Below, piece by piece: positions 26,892 to 49,600 of a DNA stretch of 64,000 nt. The position numbers and the translations under genes are program-made. This DNA is from a virus (lineage: Duplodnaviria; Heunggongvirae; Uroviricota; Caudoviricetes): the IMG/VR virus record IMGVR_UViG_3300037400_002787, positions 1 to 64,000 of that record; one strand, 5' to 3'. The notes beneath the pieces were generated by a model. It searched no databases, was not told the origin of the DNA, and saw nothing but the letters and a program-made list of their open reading frames with translations. Positions within the stretch are counted from its first letter, which is position 1, and every line of letters starts with the position of its first letter.

Positions 26892-27050
26892 ATGTCCGCA
26901 GAGAAAATGAAATGTAGAGAGTGCGACCTATGCAGCATTGAGGACGAGACCTGCAAACTAACAGGCAGGAAGATAACCTTGGATAGCCTTAGGAACTGTA
27001 AAAAGGGCATAAAAAAAACGGTTTTAGAAAATGCCGAAAGGCACAATTGA
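26892..27050 (+). CDS. possible small zinc-ribbon protein (52 aa)
   Basis: CRECDLC...CKLTG, preceded by a purine-rich SD. Confidence 0.35.
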   Translation: MSAEKMKCRECDLCSIEDETCKLTGRKITLDSLRNCKKGIKKTVLENAERHN

Positions 27051-27065
27051 AAGGAAGCAAAGAAA

Positions 27066-27638
27066 ATGGCAGAAGAAAACATAACGCTGGCTGACTATCT
27101 GGTATCTGCGGCAACTCCTGTTCCTGCAGAAGTGGTGGCTACGGAGGTTATACCCAATGCGACCCCGGCCGAAGTTGTTCAGGAAATCATAGAGAACAAC
27201 ACACCGACCATACTGGATGAGATGATGAAAGACCTTATGGGCAAGGTCAAGAGGATTGGAATGTGCGCCAAAGACCTTCATTATCGTGCTAAGGGCAAGC
27301 CATTCTACGGGCTACATCTTCTTTCTGACCTTGTGTTTCAGGTAGAAGATGACACCGACCATATCGCAGAAATCTATTTCATGGGGGATAGAGGAATTGA
27401 ACCGCCAAGAATGGACGAGGTTTACAAGAGAGCCATAGACCAGATTGTACTCTATCCTAGAGACGACAGATACTTCATTGGTGGTCTTATGGACATATGC
27501 CGCGTCACGATGCACTTCATTGAGGAAATCAAGAAGAGCGGAGACATAAAGTCGGGAGTCGCAGCAGTCCTTGACAAGATTTCAGAGCATTGCCTACTTG
27601 CAATCGGACTCCTCGACCAGACCATAAAGGGGGCTTGA
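27066..27638 (+). CDS. Dps/ferritin-like protein
   Basis: DLHYRAKGKPFYGLHLLSDL....DHIAE...GDRGIEPP follows the Dps pattern HW.vkG..F..LH......D.iAERi..lGg.P. Confidence 0.45.
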   Translation: MAEENITLADYLVSAATPVPAEVVATEVIPNATPAEVVQEIIENNTPTILDEMMKDLMGKVKRIGMCAKDLHYRAKGKPFYGLHLLSDLVFQVEDDTDHIAEIYFMGDRGIEPPRMDEVYKRAIDQIVLYPRDDRYFIGGLMDICRVTMHFIEEIKKSGDIKSGVAAVLDKISEHCLLAIGLLDQTIKGA

Positions 27639-27639
27639 T

Positions 27640-27957
27640 ATGTTTACTACTTTTTGGACTTGGTTTATAGGACTTTTTCCAAGGGAGAAGATAGGAGTCC
27701 TTTTTCTAGTTCTCTTCAAGAGCGGAATGTCTACTGTTGCAGCCCAGATAGCTGACTTAGACCTTCAGAGGAAAGCATTGGAATATGTTAGGGAACTCGC
27801 AAAGAGAGAAGACCTCGATAACTTTCAGAAGGCTAAGGAGTTTAACAAAAAGATGGCTGAGTACGGTCTAATGTTGGGCAAGGCCCTATGTGAATCCGTA
27901 ATCAACTGTCTTAGAGAACTCGCAGTCAATGCACTAAAGGCCGAACGAGGAAGATGA
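27640..27957 (+). CDS. membrane-anchored hypothetical protein
   Basis: N-terminal TM FWTWFIGLF. ATGA overlap with the upstream gene. Confidence 0.5.
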   Translation: MFTTFWTWFIGLFPREKIGVLFLVLFKSGMSTVAAQIADLDLQRKALEYVRELAKREDLDNFQKAKEFNKKMAEYGLMLGKALCESVINCLRELAVNALKAERGR

Positions 27958-27968
27958 AGCGGCTATAT

Positions 27969-28009
27969 AGCGACAAGAGAAGCGGCATTCTGACGGATGT
28001 CGCTTTTTT
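27969..28009 (+). terminator. probable terminator
   Basis: gcgaca...tgtcgc stem followed by tttttt. Confidence 0.45.
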
Positions 28010-28021
28010 CTTTCTGCCCCC

Positions 28022-28051
28022 TTGAAATCCGCAACCTAAATATGATATAAT
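28022..28051 (+). promoter_or_regulatory. sigma70-type phage promoter driving a leaderless mRNA
   Basis: ccccTTGAAAtccgc, N, TGATATAAT ends 28051. ATG at 28058, 6 nt downstream. Confidence 0.65.
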
Positions 28052-28057
28052 TTCCAT

Positions 28058-28720
28058 ATGAGCGAAGACAATAAAGAATACTGGAAGCCGTCAGTGACGG
28101 CAGACGTCGTGGTTGTAGACATTCACCAGGCGAAGTTCCGCAAAGACGGGGCATACATCAACATACTCCTCATCAAGAGGTCTGACAGGAGCGATGCATT
28201 CCCGAACTGCTGGGCTCTCCCCGGAGGATTCCTCGACAAGGGCGAATCCATAGATCAGTGTGCCGCAAGGGAACTCAAAGAGGAAACCGGCCTTGAAGCC
28301 GAGAACCTTATGCCTGTCGGCGTCTATTCCAATCCTAGCCGAGACCCAAGGGGGCAGGTAATTTCCCATGCTTTCATGTCGGTTTTCCCCTCTACCGACG
28401 AGAACCCCCTTCCCGTCAAGGCGGGAGACGATGCCAAGGATTTCGGGCTATTCAATCTAAAGGGTAAGTTCTCCCGTGAAGATGGAACCCTCAATGTTCG
28501 GCTTCGCTGTCCCGAGAACAATAAAGTCATTGAGTTCAAGGCAACCTTCTCACAGGGAGCCCTTGGCCTCCTACAGACTAAGATAGAATACAAGAGCGAC
28601 GACAAGTTGGCATTCGACCATGCGGAAATCATCGCAAGGGCGATTCTTCGGACACCTGACCTGGTAATGCCGACCTCAACAAAGCCGATGCAATCTGAAG
28701 AGAAGTCTAAAGAGAAATAA
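28058..28720 (+). CDS. NUDIX hydrolase
   Basis: Nudix box GGFLDKGESIDQCAARELKEETGL (Gx5Ex7REUxEExGU). Confidence 0.8.
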   Translation: MSEDNKEYWKPSVTADVVVVDIHQAKFRKDGAYINILLIKRSDRSDAFPNCWALPGGFLDKGESIDQCAARELKEETGLEAENLMPVGVYSNPSRDPRGQVISHAFMSVFPSTDENPLPVKAGDDAKDFGLFNLKGKFSREDGTLNVRLRCPENNKVIEFKATFSQGALGLLQTKIEYKSDDKLAFDHAEIIARAILRTPDLVMPTSTKPMQSEEKSKEK

Positions 28721-28736
28721 ACTTCTCTATACCCCC

Positions 28737-28766
28737 TTTACAACTGACCGCAAGATATGCTATAAT
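28737..28766 (+). promoter_or_regulatory. sigma70-type phage promoter
   Basis: cccccTTTACAactgaccg, N, TGCTATAAT. Confidence 0.65.
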
Positions 28767-28798
28767 TTCTTGCGGTCACGGGAAAAAGGAGAAACAAT

Positions 28799-29038
28799 AT
28801 GGAGTTGTTAGTTATATATGTTATTGGCATTCCGATAATGTTTGCATTTCTTGCAAAGAGGCTTGGAGAAGACACCTCCGAGGAGCACGATATGTCACGA
28901 GGAAGGATTATGATGAGCCTCCTGTGGCCTCTATTCCTTCCTATAATTATTTTTATGTGGCTGCAGACCGAATCCGAGGAGAGAAAGGAAAGAGAGCGGT
29001 CGGCAGAATGGAAGCGGCGAGCGAGAGGAGAAAATTGA
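28799..29038 (+). CDS. small membrane protein
   Basis: Two TM segments. SD aaaggagaaacaatATG. Confidence 0.45.
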   Translation: MELLVIYVIGIPIMFAFLAKRLGEDTSEEHDMSRGRIMMSLLWPLFLPIIIFMWLQTESEERKERERSAEWKRRARGEN

Positions 29039-29039
29039 T

Positions 29040-29255
29040 ATGTGGCAGAAACTATTATATGGATATGCTGTTGTAGCGATAACACTATTCGTATGTATAG
29101 TATTTCAGGGGAAGATTCTCAAGAAGGACTTGGGTAATGGAGTGAAGTTGGGATTTCTCAATTCGTTCATTCTATCATTCCTCTGGCCGATTTCAGTGAC
29201 AGTGACTTTCTTGGGTGTGGGCTATGAGGTAGTTCGTACCTGGAAGCGGCTTTAA
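29040..29255 (+). CDS. small membrane protein
   Basis: Hydrophobic 71-aa ORF, ATG overlapping the upstream stop. Confidence 0.45.
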   Translation: MWQKLLYGYAVVAITLFVCIVFQGKILKKDLGNGVKLGFLNSFILSFLWPISVTVTFLGVGYEVVRTWKRL

Positions 29256-29296
29256 TTTCAATACCAAAAAAACAACAAGGAAAGAAAGAAGAAAAA

Positions 29297-30400
29297 ATGA
29301 CTAACTGTTCGGAGTATGTTTCTACAGCTCATAGCGACAAAACGGCTGATGCCATTGCATCTCACCTGCTTGATGAGTACATCAAGCATGACCCCAAGGT
29401 GAGGTTCGCACTTGAGGTTCAGTTGAAAGACCACATCTGCAACCTTGCGGGCGAGGTCACTTCAACTTGGAAGCCATCTGACGATATTATTGCCGAACTT
29501 GTAAGGGGGGCAATCCGCAAGGTGGGCTACACGGCTGAGTATGCCGCCAAGTGGCCTGAAGGTGCAACCCTTAATGCAGACAAGGTTGTTGTAAACAACT
29601 TCATAGGGCAGCAGTCTCCAGACATTGCACAGGGTGTTGATGTTGACGGATGGGGTGATCAAGGTTGCTTCGCGGGAATGGCCACAAACGAAGAGCGGTA
29701 TAATTACCTTCCTCGCGATGTTTACTTCGCCCGTGAGATTGGCAAGCGGCTTTATCGTGCGGCAAAGGCCGGAACCGCTCCCATCGGACTCGACATCAAG
29801 ACCTTGGTTTCTACTACTAATGCACTCAATGTGGAGCAGGTCATAGTAGCGGCCCCGATGTTGCCCGAGAATGAACAGGAAGCAAGGTCTTTCATTGAGA
29901 AGACCGTGAAGGAAGTCCTTGACGAACGGCATCATATCTGCGACGAAATCATCATCAACGGCACAGGGGCTTATGTAGTCCACTCTTCCGTAGGAGATGC
30001 GGGGGTGGTAGGTAGGAAGTTGGCGGTAGACTTCTACGGGCTGAATTGTCCGATAGGTGGAGGCGCAACTTTTGGCAAGGACGGCACAAAGGCAGATGTG
30101 ACATTGAACCTATATGCTAGATATCGGTCACTCAAGACCATTCTCGCTAGGGGAGGAGTGTTCGACAAGGTGTATACGAAGATTGGGTGCTGCATAGGAA
30201 AGAGCAAGTGCCTTCTGTCACAGGAAGATCAAGACCACAAGATGTTTAACCAAGAGGCTGTTGACATCAAGCCGTCAGAGACGGCAAAGTTGTTCGGTCT
30301 TGATGGAAGTGGTCGTGATGATATGTTCTTCCACCTCTGCGAGGACGGACTGTTTTCGTTTGTGGACGAACTTGCCAAGACGGAAGTGGAGAATAACTAA
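29297..30400 (+). CDS. metK: S-adenosylmethionine synthetase (methionine adenosyltransferase)
   Basis: AHSDKTADAIAS (GHPDKxCDQISD), GQQSPDIAQGVD (GKQSPDINQGVD), GWGDQG (GAGDQG), GDAGVVGRKLAVDFYG, GGGATFGKDGTKADV (GGGAFSGKDPSKVDRS). Confidence 0.8.
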   Translation: MTNCSEYVSTAHSDKTADAIASHLLDEYIKHDPKVRFALEVQLKDHICNLAGEVTSTWKPSDDIIAELVRGAIRKVGYTAEYAAKWPEGATLNADKVVVNNFIGQQSPDIAQGVDVDGWGDQGCFAGMATNEERYNYLPRDVYFAREIGKRLYRAAKAGTAPIGLDIKTLVSTTNALNVEQVIVAAPMLPENEQEARSFIEKTVKEVLDERHHICDEIIINGTGAYVVHSSVGDAGVVGRKLAVDFYGLNCPIGGGATFGKDGTKADVTLNLYARYRSLKTILARGGVFDKVYTKIGCCIGKSKCLLSQEDQDHKMFNQEAVDIKPSETAKLFGLDGSGRDDMFFHLCEDGLFSFVDELAKTEVENN

Positions 30401-30415
30401 AAGGAGCATCAAACA

Positions 30416-30709
30416 ATGGCTACAAAAACAAAAGCAACAAAAGCGGTAAAGAAGACAACTTCTACAAAGACCGTCAAAAAGCGCGAAACAACCGCAGACC
30501 TCAAGAAAAAGATTGCCGAACTCGAGAACCGATTGAACAAGACTCTGGAAGAACACGGGAATCTTCTGTCTGCTACTGCCAACATTACCCAGAAACTGGA
30601 TGTAATGCTCGGACAGATGCTCAAGGCTCTTTTCATAGTTGGAATTGGGCCTGACGAACTTATGGCTAAGTGCCAGCAGATGTTCCGAAAGAATGTGGTT
30701 GCTGACTAA
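30416..30709 (+). CDS. hypothetical protein (Lys/Thr-rich N-terminus, coiled coil)
   Basis: SD aaaaggagcatcaaacaATG. Confidence 0.5.
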   Translation: MATKTKATKAVKKTTSTKTVKKRETTADLKKKIAELENRLNKTLEEHGNLLSATANITQKLDVMLGQMLKALFIVGIGPDELMAKCQQMFRKNVVAD

Positions 30710-30725
30710 TAGGATGTAAAGTTCT

Positions 30726-30953
30726 ATGTATTTAGTGATGGCCGGCAACATAGCGGATTCTCTTGTGCGGACAATAACACAAGCACTTCCGTATGTAGAC
30801 AAGGAAGTCCTCTTGGGTTGCATTAAAGAGGTTCTTCCTGAGCGAGGAATAATAATCGAAGCCACAAAAGAGGAACTTAGCAGCAACCCTAATTTGTGCA
30901 ATATGTTCTATAGGGAAGTTGAGGTGGTTCCTAAGGAGACTTTCAATGGCTAA
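30726..30953 (+). CDS. hypothetical small protein
   Basis: 75-aa ORF. Confidence 0.4.
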   Translation: MYLVMAGNIADSLVRTITQALPYVDKEVLLGCIKEVLPERGIIIEATKEELSSNPNLCNMFYREVEVVPKETFNG

Positions 30954-31329
30954 GTTCCTCAATCTTCCGATGAAGAAGAAGTGGTATGATATGATACTCT
31001 CCGGCGAGAAGAGACAGGAGTATCGTCTTGTCAAGCCATATTGGGAAACGAGAATCAAGAACTGGATAAAGCAGAATATCCCTGACCGTGCGAGGGACAC
31101 AACGATTATCTTGTGTGGGGATAAGGAAAGAGACACAGAGAGAAGGCTGCCAATCTGCTTTGTCAATGGATATGGGAAAGATGCGCCTCGTTTCATAGGC
31201 TACTGCTACTTCGTTGAGATAAGGAGAATTGGGCTGCAAAAAAAATGGGGCGAAGGGGAATACCATGGGATTCCACACTTTGTCTTGCATCTAGGGCATA
31301 TAGAAAAGGAAATCATCAATGGAAACTAA
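30946..31329 (+). CDS. ASCH/PUA-like domain protein
   Basis: LNLPMKKKWYDMILSGEKRQEYRLVKPYW resembles an ASCH-domain N-terminus. Confidence 0.4.
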   Translation: MAKFLNLPMKKKWYDMILSGEKRQEYRLVKPYWETRIKNWIKQNIPDRARDTTIILCGDKERDTERRLPICFVNGYGKDAPRFIGYCYFVEIRRIGLQKKWGEGEYHGIPHFVLHLGHIEKEIINGN

Positions 31330-31522
31330 TGAAGAGTGTTGTGCAAAATGCATCTACTGGAAAGAGAACCAGTATCGCGGAATGGCATCATTGAGCGAAG
31401 AACTGATAATGGGGAAGTGCCATAGGAATCCGCCCTCTACTGACGGGCATCTTTCATTCTTCCCCGAAACCAAGTCTTCTGAATGGTGTGGGGAGTGCAA
31501 GCTGTCAAAGAAAGGAAAGTAA
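31319..31522 (+). CDS. small Cys-rich protein
   Basis: CCAKC...CGEC. Confidence 0.45.
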   Translation: METNEECCAKCIYWKENQYRGMASLSEELIMGKCHRNPPSTDGHLSFFPETKSSEWCGECKLSKKGK

Positions 31523-31799
31523 TTATGGTAGCGAAAAAAAGGGTGAATACGATAAAGAAGGTGTTAGAAAAGATGCGCCAGACTGGTTCAAAAGGCTAGT
31601 TAACGAATATAGAGAACTAGTCGAAAAAAGAACCAAATTAGGGAAGTTTCTCCTAACAAAGCCTTTCCCGAAAGAGGTGAGTGATATACAAAGAACCCGC
31701 AAGATAGATGCCGAATCTTCAGTTCGGCATGTGAATTGCGGAGCGATATACAGAAAGAGCGGCAAAGGCACAATCAAGTATACAAGGCTTGAACAATAG
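31488..31799 (+). CDS. hypothetical protein (GTG start, overlaps upstream gene; start uncertain)
   Basis: 104-codon ORF with no in-frame ATG near the 5' end. Confidence 0.3.
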   Translation: MGSASCQRKESNYGSEKKGEYDKEGVRKDAPDWFKRLVNEYRELVEKRTKLGKFLLTKPFPKEVSDIQRTRKIDAESSVRHVNCGAIYRKSGKGTIKYTRLEQ

Positions 31800-33280
31800 G
31801 CAATAAGTAGATGAAGTCAGACGAGACCAGGAAGTGCGGATGTTCCGCAGAGAGGCGGCAGAAGGTAAAGGAAAGCCGCAAAGCCACCGCCATCAGGAGG
31901 CGGGGGCAGATGGGTTTCGTCTACGAGTGCAAGATAGTGGAGAGTCGGCTCAACAAGAGGCAGATGGAGGAACTTGAGCGGCTTTTCGTGGAGGGGAAGT
32001 GGTTCTACAACCATGTCTTGTCGCTCCATAGGGAAGGTGTGGGGTTGGGGGAGATTAATGCCACTGCCGTCAAGGAGGTGGGAAGGTTTGACAGGAACCA
32101 CGAGAAGAAGACAGAAAAACTTCAAGTGCTGACCGCTCAGGAGCGGCAGGGGATAATCGCCAGAATGGCCGCCAACGAGAAGACGATATCTGCCCTGGCG
32201 AAGAAGGGGTTGCAGGGAGGCGGGGAGTTGCATTTCCTGTCGGAGATGACGTGCATACCGCTGAAGCAGTACGGTGTGACATACAAGTTCAAGACGCCGA
32301 ACAAGGTGCGGATAGGGGGAATTAGCGGGAGTGTGCTGGTGCGGACTGGCGGACAGTTGGAAGGGGTGGACGAACTGGCGAATGCCAACCTCGTGCATAG
32401 GGCGGACGGCTACTTCCTCAAGGTCACGGGCTTCACAAACATAGAGAATCTAAAACAAACGGAAACGAACGGAAAGGAGATAGGGCTTGATTTTGGAATC
32501 AAGACCAGTGTGACGACATCGGAAGGCGAGAAGATTGACGTGCTAGTTGGAGAAAGCGAACGGCTCAAGCGGCTGCAGAAGGAACTATTCCGCAGGGCAA
32601 AGGGTTCGAACAACAGGTACAGGACAATCAAGAGGATTCGCCGCGAATACCAGAGACTGACGAACAGAAAAACCGACATGGCCAACAAAATTGTCTCGAA
32701 ACTGAAGAAATACAACACGATAGTGATGCAGGACGAGATGATTGTCGGGTGGCACAGGGGACTCTTCGGGAAGCAAGTCCAGCACAGTTGTCTAGGAATC
32801 CTGAAAGAAAAACTCATAAGGCTTCCGCAGACGATAGTGCTCGCCCGTGGAATCCCCACGACCAAGATGTGCCCCGTGTGCAAGACCGTGAACAGGTACG
32901 TCACCCTTGCGGACAGGACGTACAGGTGCGGTTGCGGCTACACCCAAGACCGCGACCTCCATGCCGCAAGGAACATGCTCGTCGTCAAGAATATGGTCTT
33001 TGGAAACAATTTGGAAAAACTACCGCTGGGACGGCGGAAAGTCACGCTCACAGAGTTCCGCACCTCTATCGGAGATGTAACAGTCTCCGACAAGCCGGAA
33101 CGCAGAAGTGGGAAGATGCCATGTCTTTAGCATGGCATAGAGTTCACAGCGGATTCTTCTAGAGAAGCAACTTATTGCAATGGATAAATATGCAACTATT
33201 CTTTTCGCTCGCATAAACCTTGCGGTTGGCGAATATTCTAAAAATAGAGACAAGAATCCATTAATGAGGAGTTCACTATG
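31800..33280 (+). mobile_element. IS200/605-family TnpB-only element 1 (boundaries approximate)
   Basis: Contains the tnpB gene. The 3' flank 33131-33277 is non-coding and would carry the omega/reRNA and RE. Confidence 0.5.
31910..33130 (+). CDS. tnpB: TnpB (OMEGA RNA-guided RuvC-like nuclease)
   Basis: RuvC-I IGLDFGIKT, RuvC-II region VMQDEMIV. C-terminal Zn finger plus RuvC-III CPVCKTVNRY...CGCGYTQDRDLHAARNM. Confidence 0.8.
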   Translation: MGFVYECKIVESRLNKRQMEELERLFVEGKWFYNHVLSLHREGVGLGEINATAVKEVGRFDRNHEKKTEKLQVLTAQERQGIIARMAANEKTISALAKKGLQGGGELHFLSEMTCIPLKQYGVTYKFKTPNKVRIGGISGSVLVRTGGQLEGVDELANANLVHRADGYFLKVTGFTNIENLKQTETNGKEIGLDFGIKTSVTTSEGEKIDVLVGESERLKRLQKELFRRAKGSNNRYRTIKRIRREYQRLTNRKTDMANKIVSKLKKYNTIVMQDEMIVGWHRGLFGKQVQHSCLGILKEKLIRLPQTIVLARGIPTTKMCPVCKTVNRYVTLADRTYRCGCGYTQDRDLHAARNMLVVKNMVFGNNLEKLPLGRRKVTLTEFRTSIGDVTVSDKPERRSGKMPCL

Positions 33281-33784
33281 ACAACATCAGAACTTATCAA
33301 ACGTGTAGAGCAAAGACTTAACAAGACGGGCAACCCTTCGCTCCCGCCAGAAGAAACTCTAAGGGCTATACTTGAACTCGGCAAAGAGCGAGATGCTGCC
33401 CTCAACGAGAAGCTCTCTATTCAGGACGAGATAGCCCAGCAGACCACAAAGATAGATGCTCTTGTCTCGCAGAAGGAGGAAGCGGAATTCCAGGCTAGAC
33501 AGGCTAAGGATGAAGCCAAGGAGCAGATGTGGATAGCCCACGAACTCGGCAACTTCATAAGGGATGTAGCCAATAGCATCTATGTTGGAAAAGAGGTTTC
33601 GGCAGCCAATAGGGTTTATGACCTCAACAAGGGGTCGCTTAGGAAGAAGCGGCTCAATGCCTACAACTTCAATTCTCTTCAGGAGGCGAAAGATGCCTTT
33701 GCGGAGTATTGTAGAGAAACGGGTGTCCCCATCAACGAGATAAATATGCTTTCGTGGCTATTCAGCTATGCCACAAGGCCGTAG
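33278..33784 (+). CDS. hypothetical coiled-coil protein
   Basis: SD aatgaggagttcactATG. Confidence 0.5.
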   Translation: MTTSELIKRVEQRLNKTGNPSLPPEETLRAILELGKERDAALNEKLSIQDEIAQQTTKIDALVSQKEEAEFQARQAKDEAKEQMWIAHELGNFIRDVANSIYVGKEVSAANRVYDLNKGSLRKKRLNAYNFNSLQEAKDAFAEYCRETGVPINEINMLSWLFSYATRP

Positions 33785-34463: not shown

Positions 34464-34468
34464 CCCCC

Positions 34469-34498: not shown

Positions 34499-34535
34499 AT
34501 CAACAACTTCAAAGAACAAAAAGGACAAGACGAAA

Positions 34536-35771
34536 ATGAAACTCAATCCGATAATCAATAGCCTACTTGAAACCGACCAGTACAAGTTTTCGATGGGGCA
34601 GACTATCTACCACCAGTTCAACAAGGATGTGACTACCTGGGCTTTCAAGTGTCGTAACAAGAATGTTGTATTCACACCCGAGATGGTGCAGGAGATTCGG
34701 GAGCAGATTGCTCATTTCTGCACCCTTAGGTTCAAGGAGGAAGAACTGGAATGGATGAAGAATACAATTCCTTGGCTTAGCGGTGACTACATTTCGCATC
34801 TCCGTAGGTGGTATCCTAGGCGGGAGCAGATTTTTGTAGACGATGGAGAGATTACACGGAATTGTGAGCCGTGCGGTATGAGAATTACCGCTACAGGAGA
34901 ATGGCTCGACACTTCCATGTACGAGATACCTATTCTCGCTATTGTAAATGAGGTGTATTTCGCTTTCAAGTATGGTGCAGGAGCCCTAAATCGTGCTGCA
35001 CAGGATAGGTTTGAGAAGAAACTGTCCATGATGAAGAATGGATACTATGCCATTGGATGCTTCTCGGAGTTTGGTATGAGGAGAAGGTATTCCGCCCAGA
35101 TGCAGGATTGGATTGTGGGTAGCCTAGCACACTTCGGTACATCTTTCAACACCTTTGTCGGTACTTCCAATGTCTACCTTGCGAAAAAGCACGGAGTCAA
35201 GCCTGTGGGGACGATGGCACATGAGTTTATCCAAGTTGTGGGACAGGCTCACCACGAGCACAATCCCGCCTACTCCAATCACTATATGATGAAGGCTTGG
35301 GTCAAGGAATACGAGACTGATAATGGCATTGCACTCACGGACACCATTACGACAGACTGCTTCCTTCGGGACTTCAACAAGACCTATGCCACACTTTTTA
35401 GCGGTGTGAGGCACGATTCCAACGACCCGTTTGTGTGGGGCGAGAAAATGATTGCTCACTACAAGAAACTTGGCATCGACCCAATGACCAAGACACTCTT
35501 GTTCTCGGATAGCCTTGACTTTAACAAGGCAACACAGATTCGTAATTATTTTAGCGGCAAGGCAAGAGTTGCATTCGGCATCGGGACATACATTGCGAAC
35601 GACACAGGCAAGGAGCCGCTTAATATAGTGATGAAGGTGATAGAAGCGAATGGCTCACCGGTTGCAAAACTTTCCGATATTGATGGCAAGGGTATGTGCC
35701 GTGATATTGCTTATGTAGACTACCTCCGCCGCACAATCGACTGGCGTCTCGCACACGAGAAGGAGGTGTAA
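34536..35771 (+). CDS. pncB: nicotinate phosphoribosyltransferase
   Basis: LLETDQYKFSMGQ (LLDTDAYKLHMQQ), VGTMAHEFIQ, GIALTDTITTDCFLRDF, GVRHDSNDPFVWGEKMIAHYKKLGIDP, NIVMKVIEANGSPVAKLSD. Near colinear with E. coli PncB. Confidence 0.9.
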   Translation: MKLNPIINSLLETDQYKFSMGQTIYHQFNKDVTTWAFKCRNKNVVFTPEMVQEIREQIAHFCTLRFKEEELEWMKNTIPWLSGDYISHLRRWYPRREQIFVDDGEITRNCEPCGMRITATGEWLDTSMYEIPILAIVNEVYFAFKYGAGALNRAAQDRFEKKLSMMKNGYYAIGCFSEFGMRRRYSAQMQDWIVGSLAHFGTSFNTFVGTSNVYLAKKHGVKPVGTMAHEFIQVVGQAHHEHNPAYSNHYMMKAWVKEYETDNGIALTDTITTDCFLRDFNKTYATLFSGVRHDSNDPFVWGEKMIAHYKKLGIDPMTKTLLFSDSLDFNKATQIRNYFSGKARVAFGIGTYIANDTGKEPLNIVMKVIEANGSPVAKLSDIDGKGMCRDIAYVDYLRRTIDWRLAHEKEV

Positions 35772-38034: not shown

Positions 38035-38571
38035 ATGTTTGTTGGGGGAATTACCAGAGAGTCTCTTGCAAAAGAGGCAAGACGGAAAAAAATGCTAGAG
38101 GAAATAGCACCGGCAAAAGACACACGCCCTTCTTGGAATACCTATTTTCTAAAGCTCGCAAAGGATGTCTCCGAGCGTAGCAACTGCTGCCGCCGCAAGG
38201 TTGGAGCGGTTATCGTCAAGGACAACCACATCATTGCTACGGGTTACAATGGTACACCCGCAGGAACCACCAACTGTTTCGACGGCGGCTGTCCTAGGTG
38301 CAACCACACCCACACAACAGGAGAGAAACTTGATGAGTGTCTTTGTGTTCATGCCGAGCAGAATGCGATATGCCAGGCGGCAAAGCACGGCAATGCCGTT
38401 GACGGAGGGCATATCTACATAACCTGCTCTCCTTGTCTTACCTGCTTGAAGTTGATAATCAATGCTGGCATCAAGAGAGTTGTTTTCAGCGAGTGGTACA
38501 AGCCTTTTAATGAGCAGGAACTAAACCTCATACAAGAAGCGAAACTTGAATATATGGAGTGCGTGAGATGA
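38035..38571 (+). CDS. dCMP deaminase (CDA-fold zinc deaminase)
   Basis: CVHAEQNAI (HAE) and PCLTCLKLIINAGIKRV (PCxxC) zinc-binding motifs. Confidence 0.8.
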   Translation: MFVGGITRESLAKEARRKKMLEEIAPAKDTRPSWNTYFLKLAKDVSERSNCCRRKVGAVIVKDNHIIATGYNGTPAGTTNCFDGGCPRCNHTHTTGEKLDECLCVHAEQNAICQAAKHGNAVDGGHIYITCSPCLTCLKLIINAGIKRVVFSEWYKPFNEQELNLIQEAKLEYMECVR

Positions 38572-39263
38572 CCAATAGACCTGGAATTATGGGGAGTATA
38601 ACTCCCCGCATGGGGATATTCGGAGGAACTTTTTCTCCTTTCACTGTTGCCCATAGAGCGATTGTCAAAGCATTTATAGGCACCTATCGTCTGGATGAAC
38701 TATATATAATTCCTACAATTGTTAATTATCATCGTGAGGGAAAAAACGACTTGCTTCTAGAAACGGACAAGGTGGAAATCATAGAGAGGATGTTAGACAC
38801 ACTCTCGCCGTTCTATCAGAGACGCATTTTTATAGACAAGAGCGAGTTTGCCTATAGAGACCTGTGCCTTGGTATGTCAGACGAGGCTTGGACCACACTT
38901 GTGGACGGACGAAGGTTTATTCATACTCTTCTAGACTTCAATGTGAGACATGGGATAGATAAAGATGTTTCCCGTCCTTATGTCTGTATTGGGACGGACT
39001 CCTTTGAGCATCTTGACCAATGGTATATGAACACGGAGATTGTGAAAATATGCAATCTTGTTGTTGTTCAGGGAAGGAACGATGTGTTTGTTTCCAGACC
39101 CAAAATCCCGCATACCGAATTTAGAATAGCCTATGACTACGAGAAGGTGTCGGCAAGCAAGATACGGGATAAGATGCGATGCCGCAACTGGAGTCACTAC
39201 ATAGCGGATGTCAAGAGACTAGACGAGGGGAAGACAACCCTTGCGGAATTAGGATGGATTTAA
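38568..39263 (+). CDS. nadD: nicotinate/nicotinamide mononucleotide adenylyltransferase (NadD/NMNAT family)
   Basis: GIFGGTFSPFTVAH (FGGTFDPVHYGH), CIGTDSFEHLDQW (IIGqDSL..F..W), VSASKIRDKM (ISAT.IRe.l). ATGA overlap with the upstream gene. Confidence 0.7.
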   Translation: MTNRPGIMGSITPRMGIFGGTFSPFTVAHRAIVKAFIGTYRLDELYIIPTIVNYHREGKNDLLLETDKVEIIERMLDTLSPFYQRRIFIDKSEFAYRDLCLGMSDEAWTTLVDGRRFIHTLLDFNVRHGIDKDVSRPYVCIGTDSFEHLDQWYMNTEIVKICNLVVVQGRNDVFVSRPKIPHTEFRIAYDYEKVSASKIRDKMRCRNWSHYIADVKRLDEGKTTLAELGWI

Positions 39264-39283: not shown

Positions 39284-39751
39284 ATGAAATACATAAACCT
39301 CCGAATCAGCCCCAACAACAATAATGTTGAAGTTACCCGCGCCTGTTCGCACGGCGACTGCGACCAGATATTGAAGGGCGACGAGAACTACTGCCCGAAG
39401 TGCGGAAGCCCGTTGAAGAAACTCCCAGACCATCTCGACAAGGAGGCGATTATCGCCCTCGTCAACGAGAACATCGACAAACTGCCGAAGCCGCCAACGG
39501 CGGAATCTAAGGCAAACCTCGACGACCATTGTTCAACCACGGGCGGTATAGACGGACACGATGGGTGGACTGTGACCAACAAAGGAAAAGAGACTACGGA
39601 ATGTCCCTACGGCAAGGGTACTCCCGAAATATGCGGGTTCTGCACAAGCAAAGGCGCTTGCACCATAGGGGTTCTAACCTCGATGCCCCCGCAGTACGAT
39701 ATGTGTCCGTTTCGCGGGTCGGGATTCATTCGCTGCTCGGAAGCCGATTGA
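39284..39751 (+). CDS. Cys-rich zinc-ribbon protein
   Basis: Multiple CxxC pairs (CPKCG, CGFC). Confidence 0.45.
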   Translation: MKYINLRISPNNNNVEVTRACSHGDCDQILKGDENYCPKCGSPLKKLPDHLDKEAIIALVNENIDKLPKPPTAESKANLDDHCSTTGGIDGHDGWTVTNKGKETTECPYGKGTPEICGFCTSKGACTIGVLTSMPPQYDMCPFRGSGFIRCSEAD

Positions 39752-39777
39752 CAAAAACTCCAAAAAGGAACTTAGAA

Positions 39778-41016
39778 ATGGAATCCTACAAATTTAACCC
39801 TGAGCAAGCATTCAACACAATCTCCGACCACTGGAAGAAGTGGGCTACGGCACACGGCATGGAGCAGTGGGTGGTCGGCATCTCCGGCGGAGTTGACAGT
39901 TCCGTGACGGCAGCTCTCGCCGCCAAGATATTTGGCTACGACAATGTACTCGGAGTCCTTATGCCGAATGGAGAGCAGAAAGACATTGAGGACGCCAAGG
40001 ACATTTGCCGACACCTCAAAATAGAGTGGTGTACCGTCAACATCGGGAGGACTTATGAGGAACTTCTTGATGAGGTTGTGTTTGGTGCATTGAGGGCATA
40101 TGGCATCGAGAGGGCTTCTACCGACACCATCACGAATATGCCGGCGAGGTTGAGGATGACTGCCCTGTATGCTATCGCACAATCCACTGCCAGGATGGTT
40201 CTCAACACCTGCAACCTATCTGAGTCCACGGTGGGCTACGATACGCTTTGGGGCGACGATGCCGGTTCCTATGCCCCTATTCAGGGTCTTACAAAGACCG
40301 AGGTGATTGCCCTCGGCGACTGGCTCGGTCTCCCGCACAACTTCACCCACAAGACTCCGATAGATGGCTTGCAGCCCAAGACAGATGAGGAGAAACTCGG
40401 CTTCACCTATGCCGACCTCGACCGCTATATCCGAGAGGACATCGGCACTCCAGAACTCAAGGCGAAGGTCGATGACCTCTATCGCCGCAACAAGTTCAAG
40501 ACCGATATGATTCATATCGACGGACCGAACTTCTATGCACTCGCCAACTTCGTCCGATACAACAACCTGCCCGATGCAGAGAAAACAGTCAAGCAAGCAT
40601 TTGCGGATAATCTCGACATTGTAAGGCTTGAGCCAGAACCACGATACCCGGAGGATGCATGGATCAACGGGGAGAGAGACGACAACGACAATCCGAAGAT
40701 GCCGTTCATGGTTGCCGATGAAAAGGCACAGAACGGCTGGGTGTGGAAACTAGATGTCAACATCAAGACGGGCGAAGTCATCGGATGGCCGAAGGATGTC
40801 AAGGCAGAGGTTCATTACAAGGTTTGCGACTGCTGCCGCATCAAGTATAATGGAGAAGAATACTACGAATATGTACCCGACTTTCTTGAAATAGATGACG
40901 AGGGATATGGAGACTACATTATACTAACAATTGATGATGGCAAAATAGTCAACTGGAGCGAGTCCGACTGCCGTAAGTTCATCAATGATGTTCTCTTCAA
41001 AGACGAGGGAAAGTAA
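39778..41016 (+). CDS. nadE: NH3-dependent NAD+ synthetase with about 140-aa C-terminal extension
   Basis: PP-loop VVGISGGVDSS. GNxxARLRM-like block (PARLRMTALY), ESTVGYDTLWGDDAGSYAPI ([26 protein letters not shown]). Confidence 0.85.
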   Translation: MESYKFNPEQAFNTISDHWKKWATAHGMEQWVVGISGGVDSSVTAALAAKIFGYDNVLGVLMPNGEQKDIEDAKDICRHLKIEWCTVNIGRTYEELLDEVVFGALRAYGIERASTDTITNMPARLRMTALYAIAQSTARMVLNTCNLSESTVGYDTLWGDDAGSYAPIQGLTKTEVIALGDWLGLPHNFTHKTPIDGLQPKTDEEKLGFTYADLDRYIREDIGTPELKAKVDDLYRRNKFKTDMIHIDGPNFYALANFVRYNNLPDAEKTVKQAFADNLDIVRLEPEPRYPEDAWINGERDDNDNPKMPFMVADEKAQNGWVWKLDVNIKTGEVIGWPKDVKAEVHYKVCDCCRIKYNGEEYYEYVPDFLEIDDEGYGDYIILTIDDGKIVNWSESDCRKFINDVLFKDEGK

Positions 41017-49054: not shown

Positions 49055-49600
49055 ATGAGCAAGAAGGTAATAGTTGTAGTTGATGTACAGAATGATTTTG
49101 TGAAGGGTGGAGTGCTCCCTTACGGCTACCCACAGAAGGATATTGTTGGGGATGTCTGCGATTATGTCCGTAAGGCAAGCTCTGAGGGGCATCGCATTAT
49201 TGCCACACGTGATACTCATCACGACAACTATTTAGAGACATTGGAGGGCAAGAACCTTCCGGTCAAGCACTGCATTCACGATACTCACGGATGGTCACTT
49301 GTTCCCGACCTTAACGAAATGTATGCGGCGGGGAAGTTGACCGTGTTCGATAAGCCAACCTTTGGCACTCCTCTGGTTGGGGAGTATGTCCGTGGCATTA
49401 TAGAGAGTGAGACGATAGATGAGATTGAACTCATTGGATTCGACCTCTCTATCTGTGTGCTTGCAAATGCCGTGCTTCTTCGTTCAAGATTCCCAAATAT
49501 GCCCATCACCGTTCGTATGGACCTCTGTGGAGATGTTGACAAGAAGAGTTTCAAGGCAGCCTGCGAGGTGCTCCATAACCAGCAGATTCGGGTCTGCTAA
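49055..49600 (+). CDS. pncA: nicotinamidase (isochorismatase-family cysteine hydrolase)
   Basis: VVVDVQNDF (VDLQNDF), THHDNY (WHPANH metal site), VKHCIHDTHG (WPDHCVQ), FDK (catalytic Lys), IGFDLSICV (MGLATDYCV, catalytic Cys). Confidence 0.7.
   Translation: MSKKVIVVVDVQNDFVKGGVLPYGYPQKDIVGDVCDYVRKASSEGHRIIATRDTHHDNYLETLEGKNLPVKHCIHDTHGWSLVPDLNEMYAAGKLTVFDKPTFGTPLVGEYVRGIIESETIDEIELIGFDLSICVLANAVLLRSRFPNMPITVRMDLCGDVDKKSFKAACEVLHNQQIRVC

What the first reader, a model, noticed from the sequence alone, without database searches (positions are those of the whole stretch)
28058..30400. NUDIX hydrolase and a phage SAM synthetase (MetK) in an anti-defence-flavoured neighbourhood
The NUDIX gene is expressed from a leaderless promoter. 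NUDIX enzymes in phages can hydrolyse ADP-ribose derivatives or NAD-derived immune signals. It is followed by small membrane proteins and a divergent but complete MetK, with all conserved substrate-binding blocks present. Phage control of SAM pools is known to affect methylation-dependent defences (BREX/R-M). An anabolic SAM synthetase on a phage is less common than SAM lyases and may boost methylation of phage DNA or polyamine synthesis.
Basis: partly seen in the sequence, partly recalled or inferred. Interest (0 to 1): 0.5.

Follow-up and report, generated by a model that had tools for sequence, protein, structure and literature searches.

The report
Phage ADP-ribose Nudix and SAM synthetase
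A large gut phage carries a Nudix hydrolase of the ADP-ribose-binding type and a divergent but intact SAM synthetase beside its NAD+-rebuilding genes; both belong to known enzyme families and to a phage group already described, so the finding is real but modest.

Summary
28058-28720 encodes a canonical Nudix protein, 28799-29255 encodes two small two-TM proteins, and 29297-30400 encodes a three-domain methionine adenosyltransferase (MAT/MetK) homologue. All 13 catalytic and ligand residues I mapped from E. coli MetK are present, and 12 are invariant in 77 relatives. The model's top 50 structural matches are all MATs.

The Nudix belongs to the NrtR/NadM-Nudix (ADP-ribose-binding) clade but lacks the NrtR DNA-binding domain. 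It sits in a phage that also encodes pncB, a nadD-like gene, nadE, a possible nicotinamidase, and a 3'cADPR-sponge (Sequestin-like) gene split by a TnpB element. Such pncB-nadD-nadE clusters are already published for gut "NAD-jumbo phages".

More distant phage MetK relatives lie next to DNA methyltransferases (29 of 34 methyltransferase-bearing loci, 7.6 expected). No methyltransferase was found in this window.

NUDIX-MetK adjacency is synteny within one clade, not an obligate pair. The leaderless geometry is real (ATG 6 nt after the -10, no SD, terminator-like hairpin upstream) but specific to this lineage; relatives have 35-54 nt leaders.

Verdict: correct annotations, ordinary enzymes, new members of known kinds. 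All functions are inferred.

The parts
27977..28013 (+). Terminator-like hairpin (about 14 bp stem) followed by a U-tract, between the upstream gene and the NUDIX promoter
   Evidence: RNA fold of 27955-28030: MFE -21.9 kcal/mol, z = -2.0 against shuffles; sequence read
28022..28051 (+). Phage consensus promoter P1 (CCCCC-TTGAAA-N18 with TGa-TATAAT). The -10 ends 6 nt before the NUDIX ATG, which gives the leaderless geometry
   Evidence: 11 of 12 consensus matches with extended -10 TG. It is one of about 11 near-identical promoters on the + strand. Leader lengths are compared
28058..28720 (+). Stand-alone Nudix hydrolase (220 aa) of the NrtR/NadM-Nudix ADP-ribose-binding clade. It has no winged-helix domain. 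Relative to plain Nudix domains it has a 46-residue beta insertion (about residues 135-181)
   Evidence: Pfam and PHROG; NCBIfam best hits are NadM-Nudix and NrtR; PDB sequence hits 2fml, 3i9x, 2qjt, 2qjo, 3gz5, 5bs6; family alignment A3; model pLDDT 87.5 and Foldseek hits
28737..28766 (+). Second copy of the consensus promoter (P2), followed by a 32-nt leader with AAAGGAG ahead of the 79-aa ORF. It is absent from the closest relative, L088
28799..29038 (+). Small membrane protein, 79 aa, two predicted TM segments. It is found in this lineage and is absent from L088
   Evidence: Hydropathy; weak phrog_14512 'membrane protein' hit at 7.6e-4; absence in L088
29040..29255 (+). Small membrane protein, 71 aa, two predicted TM segments. 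A small ORF of 71-76 aa sits directly upstream of the MetK-like gene in relatives
   Evidence: Hydropathy; sequence-similar counterpart in L088 and in L006 cluster c145; small ORFs of 76 aa in L002 and 71 aa in L087 at the same position; no BLAST similarity to the 79-aa ORF
29297..30400 (+). Divergent methionine adenosyltransferase (SAM synthetase) homologue, 367 aa. It has three domains and an intact active site, plus family-specific GWGDQG, NGTG, HS[ST] and CCIG motifs, a gating loop about 4 residues shorter than in E. coli, and a divergent C-terminal ~65 aa
   Evidence: family alignments A1 and A2; model pTM 0.83; Foldseek top 50 are all MATs, TM 0.63-0.77
31530..31697 (+). 5' part of a Sequestin-like (PF21825, 3'cADPR sponge family) gene, interrupted after about residue 58
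   Evidence: Precomputed Pfam hit; all 7 homologues carry PF21825; alignment A4 diverges after '...VSDIQR'; tblastn of a relative gives residues 3-58 at 31530-31697 and residues 56-99 at 33147-33278
31698..33146 (+). IS200/IS605-type insert that carries only TnpB (ORF 31811-33130), with similar subterminal hairpins at both ends (31706-31730 and 33114-33138). It splits the Sequestin-like gene
   Evidence: Pfam OrfB_IS605 plus Cas12f1-like_TNB; repeats D2 and I1; no Rfam intron or other RNA family in 31000-37600
33147..33281 (+). 3' part of the split Sequestin-like gene (residues about 56-99 of relatives, 91% identity)
34536..35771 (+). Context: nicotinate phosphoribosyltransferase PncB, preceded by the same consensus promoter (34469-34498)
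   Evidence: Pfam NAPRTase 3.8e-68; NCBIfam NF003704 467 bits against 379, TIGR01514 413 against 269.55; promoter
38559..39263 (+). Context: divergent NadD-like nicotinate-nucleotide adenylyltransferase
   Evidence: Pfam CTP_transf_like 4.1e-9, above its cutoff; TIGR00482 63.2 bits, below the 112.45 cutoff
39529..41016 (+). Context: NAD+ synthase NadE domain, with about 95 extra N-terminal and about 170 extra C-terminal residues
   Evidence: Pfam NAD_synthase 8.6e-49; TIGR00552 165.1 bits against 63.65
49055..49600 (+). Context: isochorismatase-family protein and possible nicotinamidase (weak support), preceded by the consensus promoter 48990-49019
   Evidence: Pfam Isochorismatase 1.6e-18; nicotinamidase NF008623 only 25 bits against 174

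Best explanation
These are two separate auxiliary metabolic enzymes of a large gut phage related to the published 'NAD-jumbo phages'.

(1) The Nudix protein is most likely an ADP-ribose pyrophosphatase (ADPR to AMP plus ribose-5-phosphate). It would work within the phage's NAD+ economy, alongside the phage-encoded Preiss-Handler enzymes PncB, a NadD-like protein and NadE. It would clear or recycle the ADPR released when NAD+ is cleaved, whether by host NADase defences or by the phage's own ADP-ribosyltransferase. The ribose-5-phosphate could feed PRPP for PncB.

(2) The MetK-like protein is most likely a working methionine adenosyltransferase that makes SAM from ATP and methionine during infection, supplying phage SAM-dependent enzymes. 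In relatives these are chiefly DNA methyltransferases that would protect phage DNA from restriction.

Shown here: family membership, intact catalytic residues, the folds, the genomic context, and methyltransferase adjacency in relatives.
Inferred: the substrates, the direction of benefit, and any counter-defence effect.

The two genes are neighbours through conserved synteny in one phage clade. They are driven by copies of the same phage promoter and need not act together.
For: Nudix:
- The Nudix box is canonical. E63, R71, E72, E75 and E76, plus RDPR (95-98), DDA (124-126) and FDHA (186-189), are invariant in 25 sequences.
- The best NCBIfam hits are the Nudix half of NadM-Nudix enzymes and NrtR.
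- PDB sequence hits are 2fml, 3i9x, 2qjt/2qjo (NMNAT/ADPR pyrophosphatase), 3gz5 (NrtR) and 5bs6.
- Foldseek hits of a pLDDT 87.5 model include the NrtR Nudix domain bound to ADP-ribose, the NadM ADPR pyrophosphatases and the TRPM2 ADPR domain.
- Bacterial relatives at about 40% identity are NUDIX plus NrtR_WHD proteins.

NAD context:
- pncB and nadE score above curated cutoffs. A nadD-like gene and an isochorismatase are present, as is an ART-PolyVal domain.
- The same order (NUDIX ... MetK ... NAPRTase ... CTP_transf_like) recurs in L002, L003 and L088.
- The pncB-nadD-nadE cluster is published for gut NAD-jumbo phages (PMC11662467).
- A Sequestin-family gene lies 1.1 kb downstream of the MetK-like gene.

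MetK:
- Three Pfam domains are present.
- The residues matching E. coli H14, D16, K17, E42, E55, D118, D163, K165, D238, R244, K245, K265, K269 and D271 are H12, D14, K15, E40, E53, D121, D166, K168, D234, R240, K241, K261, K265 and D267 (alignment). All are invariant in 77 relatives except K15, which is K or R.
- The methionine-site positions Q106, I110 and aromatic Y226 are kept.
- The top 50 Foldseek matches are all MATs.
- A ParB/N6_N4 DNA methyltransferase lies within 2 genes of the MetK-like gene in 29 of 34 methyltransferase-bearing loci, against 7.6 expected. Two methyltransferase families are involved, on opposite sides, across 9 MetK clusters at 70% identity.
- Closer relatives carry a C5 methylase (L087) or an N6_N4 methyltransferase plus a radical-SAM enzyme (L085).
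Against: - No substrate was tested for either enzyme.
- The NrtR-like regulators in the alignment also keep the Nudix box residues, so an intact box does not prove catalysis.
- The two closest solved structures (2fml, 3i9x) are uncharacterised.
- The Nudix gene is about 6 kb from pncB. In more distant relatives (L085, L086) it is not near NAD genes or MetK.
- No methyltransferase or other SAM-dependent domain was found among the roughly 50 larger ORFs of the window that I scanned. The rest of the contig (at least 96.6 kb) could not be retrieved.
- The MetK score is below the NCBIfam equivalog cutoff.
- The model is unconfident at residues 226-266, the conserved loop region that carries K261 and K265.
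- The family-specific Trp in GWGDQG has unknown consequences.
- The methyltransferase-adjacency statistic uses related phages recovered through two sequence motifs, so the loci are not independent.
Confidence: 0.6

Rival explanations
1. The Nudix protein is not a metabolic recycler. It degrades or sequesters NAD-derived immune signals, such as the cADPR isomers or His-ADPR of Thoeris-type systems, and so blocks effector activation rather than rebuilding NAD+.
For: It belongs to an ADPR-binding clade. A Sequestin-family gene (3'cADPR sponge; bioRxiv 10.1101/2025.07.12.664507) lies 2.8 kb downstream of it. The phage invests heavily in NAD+ supply.
Against: No known anti-Thoeris enzyme is a Nudix of this clade. 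The PADLOC scan gave only a generic Nudix hit. Cyclic ADPR isomers are not shown to be substrates of NadM-type ADPRases. Adjacency to the Sequestin-like gene is not conserved, since L088 lacks that gene.
Confidence: 0.15
2. The Nudix protein is a housekeeping-type enzyme unrelated to NAD. Possibilities are nucleotide-pool sanitation (MutT-like), Ap(n)A hydrolysis, or RNA 5'-end decapping, including NAD-cap removal, to reshape host or phage mRNA stability.
For: Weak secondary NCBIfam hits to MutT, NudI, RppH and NudC-type families. The phage has other nucleotide-pool genes, namely dUTPase and dCMP deaminase, and RNA-repair genes.
Against: Those hits cover only the Nudix box (about 35-50 residues) at 20-30 bits. 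The full-length matches and the RDPRG and LAFDH motifs tie it to the NrtR/NadM clade.
Confidence: 0.15
3. The MetK-like protein does not act by raising SAM for methylation. Instead it either produces a different sulfonium or adenosyl product, or it binds and modulates the host MetK or a SAM-using defence (Type I R-M, BREX, SAM-AMP-signalling type III CRISPR).
For: It scores well below the equivalog cutoff. It has family-specific changes next to the active site: GWGDQG instead of GAGDQG, a gating loop about 4 residues shorter, and a divergent C-terminal 65 aa. PHROG 1569 is labelled 'unknown function'. No methyltransferase was found in the window. T3 SAM lyase shows that phages do target host MetK (bioRxiv 10.1101/2023.02.27.530186).
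Against: Every catalytic, phosphate-, metal- and methionine-binding position checked is conserved and under strong purifying selection. A decoy or binder would not need that. The nearest solved relative, C. jejuni MetK, shares the HSS motif. Methyltransferase adjacency in relatives points to plain SAM supply.
Confidence: 0.1
4. NUDIX, the small membrane protein and MetK form one functional module, for example coupled uptake or conversion of a precursor, rather than independent genes.
For: The order NUDIX, small TM ORF, MetK recurs in WIN, L002-L004, L006 and L088. A small ORF stays directly upstream of MetK even when an AAA_15 gene is inserted after NUDIX in L087.
Against: All of these are related phages with conserved synteny. 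NUDIX occurs without MetK (L085, L086). MetK occurs without NUDIX in more than 60 loci. No chemistry links ADPR hydrolysis to SAM synthesis. In the window an independent promoter separates the genes.
Confidence: 0.1

Closest known systems
Nudix (ADP-ribose pyrophosphatase) domain of bifunctional NadM-Nudix enzymes (Synechocystis slr0787 2qjo, Francisella 2qjt/2r5w) and of Vibrio phage KVP40 NatV in NARP2
   Same: Same Nudix subclade by sequence and by model. It is also encoded by a phage that carries its own NAD+ synthesis genes.
   Different: Here the Nudix is a stand-alone 220-aa protein with a 46-residue insertion, not fused to an NMN adenylyltransferase. The accompanying pathway is Preiss-Handler (PncB, NadD-like, NadE), not Nampt plus NMNAT. 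Activity is untested.
NrtR family of ADP-ribose-responsive transcriptional regulators (Shewanella NrtR 3gz5/3gz8; NUDIX plus NrtR_WHD, PF21906)
   Same: These are the closest non-phage relatives, at about 35-43% identity. They share the RDPRG, DDA and LAFDH motifs. The Nudix fold matches the ADPR-bound NrtR domain.
   Different: The phage protein ends about 30 residues after the LAFDH helix and has no winged-helix DNA-binding domain. It therefore cannot be an NrtR-type repressor.
Bacterial MetK, especially the 'unusual' Campylobacter jejuni SAM synthetase (PDB 4le5)
   Same: Three-domain MAT fold (TM about 0.7). All catalytic residues are kept, and it shares the HSS motif in place of GGP.
   Different: About 28% identity in the structural alignment, below the TIGR01034 cutoff. 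GWGDQG, NGTG and CCIG variants, a shorter gating loop, and a divergent C-terminal 65 aa.
Prophage-encoded MetK of Streptococcus phages (Javan phages, phi1207.3, 12/111phiA; PMC8223999)
   Same: A phage-borne MAT homologue already annotated as SAM synthetase. In 12/111phiA it lies next to an endonuclease gene, in a prophage for which the abstract reports a restriction-modification system.
   Different: Only about 31% identical and about 135 aa shorter than E. coli MetK, according to PMC8223999. The phenotypes reported there concern host aggregation and biofilm, not phage defence evasion.
'NAD-jumbo phages' of animal guts with pncB-nadD-nadE clusters (Kuafu clade; Li et al. 2024, PMC11662467)
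   Same: The same gene trio is present. Close relatives of the window's genes lie on contigs of 200-434 kb, one of them binned as Prevotella.
   Different: The main text of that paper mentions neither the Nudix nor the MetK. Only a contig of at least 96.6 kb is known for this phage. Its promoters are sigma-70-like and most leaders carry a purine-rich Shine-Dalgarno-like motif, which is unexpected for a Bacteroidota host.
Phage T3 SAM lyase (SAMase)
   Same: A phage enzyme that acts on the SAM pool and has consequences for Type I R-M and BREX.
   Different: It has the opposite chemistry and logic. T3 destroys SAM and inhibits host MetK, while this gene would make SAM. The folds are unrelated.

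Membership tests
Nudix hydrolase superfamily (PF00293) | Nudix box GX5EX7REUXEEXGU with the catalytic Glu residues | tested here: met
   GFLDKGESIDQCAARELKEETGL at residues 57-79. E63, R71, E72, E75 and E76 are invariant in 25 sequences.
Nudix hydrolase superfamily (PF00293) | Profile score above the curated cutoff, and an alpha/beta/alpha Nudix fold | tested here: met
   69.7 bits against 21.1. Model pLDDT 87.5, and all listed Foldseek hits are Nudix proteins.
ADP-ribose pyrophosphatase (NadM-Nudix/COG1051-type) | Closest sequence and structure relatives are ADPR-binding or ADPR-hydrolysing Nudix domains | tested here: met
   NCBIfam top hits are NadM-Nudix. PDB hits 2qjt, 2qjo and 3gz8 (with ADPR).
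ADP-ribose pyrophosphatase (NadM-Nudix/COG1051-type) | Hydrolysis of ADP-ribose to AMP plus ribose-5-phosphate | not testable with these tools
   This needs an enzyme assay. The two nearest solved homologues (2fml, 3i9x) are uncharacterised.
NrtR transcriptional regulators | C-terminal winged-helix DNA-binding domain (PF21906 NrtR_WHD) | tested here: not met
   The domain is present in bacterial relatives P0217 and P0230 and absent from the window protein and all phage-clade members.
NARP2 (Nampt plus bifunctional NMNAT/Nudix, KVP40-type) | Nicotinamide phosphoribosyltransferase plus an NMNAT fused to a Nudix domain | tested here: not met
   The phosphoribosyltransferase is the nicotinate type (TIGR01514, 413 bits against 269.55). 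Nudix and the adenylyltransferase are separate genes about 10 kb apart.
Methionine adenosyltransferase / MetK | Three S-AdoMet_synt domains (PF00438, PF02772, PF02773) above their cutoffs | tested here: met
   61.7/33.1, 34.8/29 and 44.3/25 bits.
Methionine adenosyltransferase / MetK | NCBIfam equivalog TIGR01034 cutoff | tested here: not met
   151.7 bits against 309.4. It is a divergent subfamily (PHROG 1569).
Methionine adenosyltransferase / MetK | Catalytic and ligand residues (E. coli H14, D16, K17, E42, E55, D118, D163, K165, D238, R244, K245, K265, K269, D271) | tested here: met
   H12, D14, K15, E40, E53, D121, D166, K168, D234, R240, K241, K261, K265 and D267 (alignment). Invariant in A1 and A2 except K15, which is K or R. 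The residue roles come from established MetK literature, which is my own knowledge.
Methionine adenosyltransferase / MetK | MAT fold over the whole length | tested here: met
   pTM 0.83. The top 50 Foldseek PDB hits are all MATs, probability 1.0, TM 0.63-0.77. Residues 226-266 are low confidence in the monomer model.
Methionine adenosyltransferase / MetK | Formation of SAM from ATP and methionine | not testable with these tools
   This needs an assay or complementation.
NAD-jumbo phage Preiss-Handler cluster (Li et al. 2024) | Phage-encoded pncB, nadD and nadE | tested here: met
   pncB and nadE score above NCBIfam cutoffs. The nadD-like gene is above the Pfam cutoff but below the NCBIfam cutoff.
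NAD-jumbo phage Preiss-Handler cluster (Li et al. 2024) | Genome larger than 200 kb | not testable with these tools
   The window is 64 kb and the longest contig on record with the identical MetK is 96,646 bp. Relatives lie on contigs of 200-434 kb.
Leaderless mRNA | Transcription start at or within a few nt of the start codon, and no Shine-Dalgarno | tested here: inconclusive
   The geometry fits: the -10 ends 6 nt before the ATG, there is no SD, a terminator-like hairpin lies upstream, and a second gene has identical spacing. However, there is no transcript data, and relatives have 35-54 nt leaders.

The most novel reading that the evidence does not exclude
The stand-alone NrtR-clade Nudix may be a dedicated part of an undescribed Preiss-Handler-type phage NAD+ reconstitution route. 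In that route it would turn the ADP-ribose (or cADPR-type signals) left by NADase defences into AMP plus ribose-5-phosphate, feeding PRPP to PncB. The small-membrane-protein plus MetK pair would be a second 'rebuild the metabolite' counter-defence that keeps SAM high for phage DNA methylation. Together they would make a multi-metabolite counter-defence island, all driven by one phage promoter class.
Probability: 0.2. Interest if true: 0.6.

Novelty: new member of a known kind. Interest (0 to 1): 0.3.

Why it matters
If the inferred roles hold, this phage clade shows metabolite rebuilding as a counter-defence that extends beyond the characterised NARP1-3 systems. It would combine a full Preiss-Handler route with an ADPR-clearing Nudix, plus SAM supply for self-methylation.

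The phage MetK subfamily is large, with thousands of metagenomic members. It is still labelled 'unknown function' in PHROGs and, as far as the searched literature shows, has not been tested biochemically. Its frequent adjacency to DNA methyltransferases gives a simple hypothesis to test.

As it stands, both genes are correctly recognisable members of known families, in a phage group whose NAD+ genes are already published. The practical value is better annotation and a shortlist for experiments, not a new principle.

Tried and rejected
1. Near-identical phage genomes: megablast of 27000-31500 against 50,697 phage records found nothing.
2. Retrieving the rest of the source contig to look for methyltransferases:
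   - Exact-product look-ups of the window's first and last large genes were not on record.
   - A 41-nt exact pattern from the window's end matched nothing in viral or metagenome contigs.
3. NARP3 as an explanation: rejected. It is PnuC plus NadR.
4. NrtR-type regulator: rejected, because there is no winged-helix domain.
5. The two small membrane ORFs as paralogues: not supported, with no BLAST similarity.
6. Defence or anti-defence profile hits (PADLOC) for the ten local ORFs: only generic or low-complexity matches.
7. H. pylori 'phage metK': this is the host gene flanking a prophage insertion site, so it is irrelevant.
8. Neighbours of the MetK-like gene in the jumbo-phage relatives L007-L010 and L084: no recognisable methyltransferase motifs by eye. 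I did not scan them against Pfam.
9. A self-splicing intron (IStron) as an explanation for the TnpB insert in the Sequestin-like gene: no Rfam match in 31000-37600. The ends carry IS200/IS605-like hairpins instead.
10. Literature on SAM-depleting defences or tested phage SAM synthetases: none found in the library.

Full report
**What is at the coordinates**

The ORF list shows four co-directional genes on the + strand:
- 28058-28720 (220 aa)
- 28799-29038 (79 aa)
- 29040-29255 (71 aa)
- 29297-30400 (367 aa)

The first is a Nudix protein: Pfam NUDIX at 3.3e-19, 69.7 bits against a cutoff of 21.1, and phrog_1198 'MutT/NUDIX hydrolase' at 3e-25. Its motif GFLDKGESIDQCAARELKEETGL fits the Nudix box exactly. 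The two small ORFs each have two hydrophobic segments and show no detectable similarity to each other.

The last ORF matches all three S-adenosylmethionine-synthetase Pfam domains above their cutoffs. Its best solved relatives are true SAM synthetases: C. jejuni 4le5 at 6.4e-41 and E. coli 1fug at 2.1e-34. It is clearly divergent. TIGR01034 gives 151.7 bits against a cutoff of 309.4, PHROG 1569 is labelled 'unknown function', and the last ~65 residues do not align by sequence.

**The leaderless claim**

The window has its own promoter consensus, CCCCC-TTKMAA-N18(TGn)-TATAAT, in about 11 copies, all on the + strand. At the NUDIX gene the -10 hexamer ends at 28051 and the ATG is at 28058, so the 'leader' is ttccat, with no Shine-Dalgarno. 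At eight of the other ten copies the leader is 21-60 nt, mostly with a purine-rich Shine-Dalgarno-like motif. The exceptions are 59610, described next, and 51095, where my script found no long ORF.

Two things support a true leaderless transcript:
- A hairpin plus U-tract at 27977-28013 lies just upstream of the promoter (z = -2.0).
- A second gene has the same geometry: the -10 ends at 59639 and an in-frame ATG is at 59646.

Against reading much into it, relatives L002 and L006 have the same promoter with a ~35 nt leader containing gaaagga. The closest distinct relative, L088 (Nudix 86% identical), has a 54 nt leader, only one small membrane ORF, and no internal promoter. The leaderless arrangement, the 79-aa ORF and promoter P2 are therefore recent rearrangements in this lineage. 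Expression is untested.

**What the Nudix protein is**

- Its best NCBIfam matches are the Nudix halves of bifunctional NMN adenylyltransferase/Nudix enzymes and the ADPR-responsive repressor NrtR.
- Its PDB sequence matches are 2fml, 3i9x, 2qjt/2qjo (NadM-Nudix), 3gz5/3gz8 (NrtR) and 5bs6 (AraR).
- A confident model (pLDDT 87.5) is closest to 2fml, then to the NrtR Nudix domain co-crystallised with ADP-ribose, AraR and the NadM ADPR pyrophosphatases. The ADPR-binding domain of TRPM2 appears further down the list.
- Bacterial relatives at about 40% identity carry NUDIX plus the NrtR winged-helix domain PF21906.
- The phage protein and its roughly 100 metagenomic relatives end shortly after the LAFDH helix and lack that domain.

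In alignment A3 the catalytic Glu and Arg residues and the clade motifs RDPR, DDA and FDHA are invariant. The NrtR-like sequences keep them too, so an intact box alone does not prove hydrolase activity. My best reading is an ADP-ribose pyrophosphatase. This is an inference from clade membership.

**Context that changes the reading**

The same strand of the window encodes:
- PncB at 34536-35771 (467 bits against 379)
- a NadD-like adenylyltransferase at 38559-39263 (above the Pfam cutoff, below the NCBIfam cutoff)
- NadE at 39529-41016 (165 bits against 63.65)
- an isochorismatase-family protein at 49055-49600 that may be a nicotinamidase (weak support)
- an AAA_28 protein at 9761-10366
- an ART-PolyVal ADP-ribosyltransferase domain at 61542-63509

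The order head-completion, x, x, NUDIX, small TM, MetK..., NAPRTase..., CTP_transf_like recurs on a 274 kb contig binned as a Prevotella MAG (L002/L003) and in L088. IMG/VR locus L006, on a 223 kb contig, shares the NUDIX, small TM, MetK core.

A pncB-nadD-nadE cluster on gastrointestinal 'NAD-jumbo phages' has been published (Li et al. 2024, PMC11662467). Those authors propose that it counters NAD+-depleting defences, and their main text mentions neither Nudix nor MetK. The characterised phage NAD+ reconstitution pathways are NARP1, NARP2 (bioRxiv 10.1101/2024.02.11.579819) and NARP3 (PMC13464706). They use different enzymes, and this window meets the definition of none of them.

**A further counter-defence element**

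The ORF at 31488-31799 carries a weak precomputed PF21825 hit, and all seven of its homologues carry PF21825. PF21825, 'Sequestin', is an experimentally shown family of phage sponges for 3'cADPR, the type I Thoeris signal (bioRxiv 10.1101/2025.07.12.664507).

The window's copy is split. Residues 3-58 of a relative map to 31530-31697, and residues 56-99 map to 33147-33278. The 1.45 kb between them carries only a TnpB gene and has similar hairpins near both ends (31706-31730 and 33114-33138). No intron or other Rfam family was found there. So a candidate anti-Thoeris gene is present but interrupted by an IS200/IS605-type element.

**What the MetK-like protein is**

Using the HMMER alignment to E. 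coli MetK, the catalytic and ligand residues map as follows:

| E. coli MetK | Window protein |
|---|---|
| H14 | H12 |
| D16 | D14 |
| K17 | K15 |
| E42 | E40 |
| E55 | E53 |
| D118 | D121 |
| D163 | D166 |
| K165 | K168 |
| D238 | D234 |
| R244 | R240 |
| K245 | K241 |
| K265 | K261 |
| K269 | K265 |
| D271 | D267 |

The residue roles are from the MetK literature, which is my own knowledge. All of these positions are invariant in 16 and in 77 family members, except K15, which is K or R. Q106, I110 and aromatic Y226, at the methionine and adenine site, are also kept.

The AlphaFold model (pTM 0.83) is weak only in the gating loop and in residues 226-266. Its 50 best PDB matches are all methionine adenosyltransferases (TM 0.63-0.77). 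Family-specific features are GWGDQG for GAGDQG, NGTG, HS[ST] (shared with C. jejuni MetK), CCIG, and a gating loop about four residues shorter than in E. coli. Their effect is unknown.

**What relatives say about its role**

The family is large: 6,584 proteins at E <= 1e-10 among the candidates scored. In the phage collection, 126 of 50,697 records have a homologue. Most are Streptococcus prophages, where the gene is already annotated as SAM synthetase. One of these, from prophage 12/111phiA, has been studied genetically for host aggregation and biofilm phenotypes (PMC8223999).

I fetched 80 viral loci, called ORFs and clustered the neighbours. NUDIX is adjacent only in the window's own clade. 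In the 40-45%-identity group, the commonest direct neighbours include two DNA methyltransferase families. One is a ParB_N plus N6_N4_Mtase protein, usually immediately upstream. The other is an N6_N4_Mtase protein, usually immediately downstream (Pfam). A methyltransferase lies within two genes in 29 of the 34 loci that have one, against 7.6 expected from random placement. These loci span nine MetK clusters at 70% identity. The loci are related and were recovered through two sequence motifs, so the nominal p-value overstates independence.

Closer relatives also carry SAM users: a 1,272-aa intein-containing C5 methylase in L087, and an N6_N4 methyltransferase plus a radical-SAM enzyme in L085. 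In the window itself, none of the roughly 50 larger ORFs I scanned has a methyltransferase or other SAM-dependent domain. I could not obtain the rest of the contig, which is at least 96.6 kb.

**Are NUDIX and MetK a pair?**

Twelve NUDIX relatives and twelve MetK relatives share identical longest-contig lengths. Two of these cases were verified directly as the same contig. So the genes travel together within this clade.

Three things argue against an obligate pairing:
- In L087 an AAA_15 gene is inserted between them.
- In L085 and L086 the Nudix occurs without MetK or NAD genes nearby.
- More than 60 MetK loci lack the Nudix.

I therefore read the adjacency as conserved synteny of two independent auxiliary genes. 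A small ORF directly upstream of MetK is the tighter association.

**Comparison with what is known, and verdict**

Both proteins are members of well-known enzyme families. Phage-borne MetK genes and phage NAD+ synthesis clusters are both in the literature. No paper in the searched library reports a direct biochemical or counter-defence test of a phage SAM synthetase, or a SAM-depleting defence.

The new elements are modest:
- a stand-alone NrtR-clade Nudix accompanying a phage Preiss-Handler pathway
- the quantified methyltransferase adjacency of a phage MAT subfamily that PHROGs still labels 'unknown'
- the lineage-specific leaderless arrangement

I rate this a new member of a known kind, with interest 0.3. 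The most novel reading still open is a multi-metabolite (NAD+ plus SAM) counter-defence island in which the Nudix is a required step. I give that about 0.2 probability.

Noticed in passing
window 31530-31697 + 33147-33281, insert 31698-33146: A Sequestin-like gene (PF21825, the family of validated 3'cADPR/Thoeris sponges) is split by a 1.45 kb IS200/IS605-type element. The element carries only TnpB and has similar subterminal hairpins at both ends. Removing the insert would restore the reading frame as judged from relatives.
   Followed up: yes
window + strand: 121, 5709, 22339, 28022, 28737, 34469, 44573, 48990, 51095, 59610, 60214: A phage-specific promoter consensus, CCCCC-TTKMAA-N18(TGn)-TATAAT, is repeated about 11 times on one strand. 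Copies lie upstream of NUDIX, the TM/MetK block, pncB and the isochorismatase gene, which suggests one temporal class.
   Followed up: partly
window 59610-60194: A second candidate leaderless gene. The consensus -10 ends at 59639 and an in-frame ATG at 59646 lies 6 nt after it, the same spacing as NUDIX. It opens a 182-aa ORF of unknown function.
   Followed up: partly
window 34536-35771, 38559-39263, 39529-41016, 49055-49600, 9761-10366: Preiss-Handler NAD+ genes are present: pncB, a nadD-like gene, nadE and a possible nicotinamidase, plus an AAA_28 protein of the NadR-kinase family. Within the cluster lie a second TnpB (35826-37115) and a dCMP deaminase, and an HNH endonuclease (41957-43222) sits just downstream of nadE. 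NadE has unexplained extensions of about 95 aa (N-terminal) and about 170 aa (C-terminal).
   Followed up: partly
window 61542-63509: A 655-aa protein has an ART-PolyVal ADP-ribosyltransferase domain at residues 423-558. This is a phage-encoded consumer of NAD+. A related domain lies near the Nudix gene in L085.
   Followed up: no
window 697-1926, 45134-45763, 46197-46856: An RNA-repair-flavoured set: an RNA ligase (phrog_968, 3.6e-79), a PTH2-type peptidyl-tRNA hydrolase, and an RLIG1-like domain. These could counter tRNA- or RNA-cleaving defences.
   Followed up: no
window 12363-13151 and 50074-51084: A caspase-family (Peptidase_C14) protein and a protein with a papain-like C1 peptidase domain are encoded by the phage. 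The caspase-like gene is conserved in relative L085.
   Followed up: no
window-wide; L002/L003: The host signal is inconsistent. Relatives are binned as Prevotella, and the published Kuafu NAD-jumbo clade is predicted to infect Bacteroidota. Yet the promoters here are sigma-70-like (TTGACA/TATAAT with TG extension), and most leaders carry a purine-rich Shine-Dalgarno-like motif such as AAGGAG.
   Followed up: no
L087 1020-4838: A 1,272-aa C5 DNA methylase interrupted by a Hint (intein) domain lies 7 kb upstream of the NUDIX, AAA_15, MetK block in a relative (NCBI GCA_963623905.1).
   Followed up: no
window 30416-30709: A 97-aa ORF with a lysine-rich N-terminus lies immediately downstream of the MetK-like gene. 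It is conserved at that position in L002, L006 and L088 (cluster c42). It has only low-complexity-type PADLOC matches, and its function is unknown.
   Followed up: no
window 9761-11224; L085 13659-15804: An AAA_28 plus Metallophos phosphoesterase gene pair. Relative L085 has a similar run of genes (an unannotated 201-aa ORF, then Radical_SAM, then Metallophos), so a radical-SAM gene sits where the window has none.
   Followed up: no
window 8343-8831, 9296-9745, 38014-38571, 52219-54126, 60265-61407, 58391-59593: Other annotated genes: dUTPase, a YqeY-like protein, dCMP deaminase, a DnaB-like helicase, a DNA polymerase III beta clamp, and a GT2 glycosyltransferase fused to TPR repeats.
   Followed up: no
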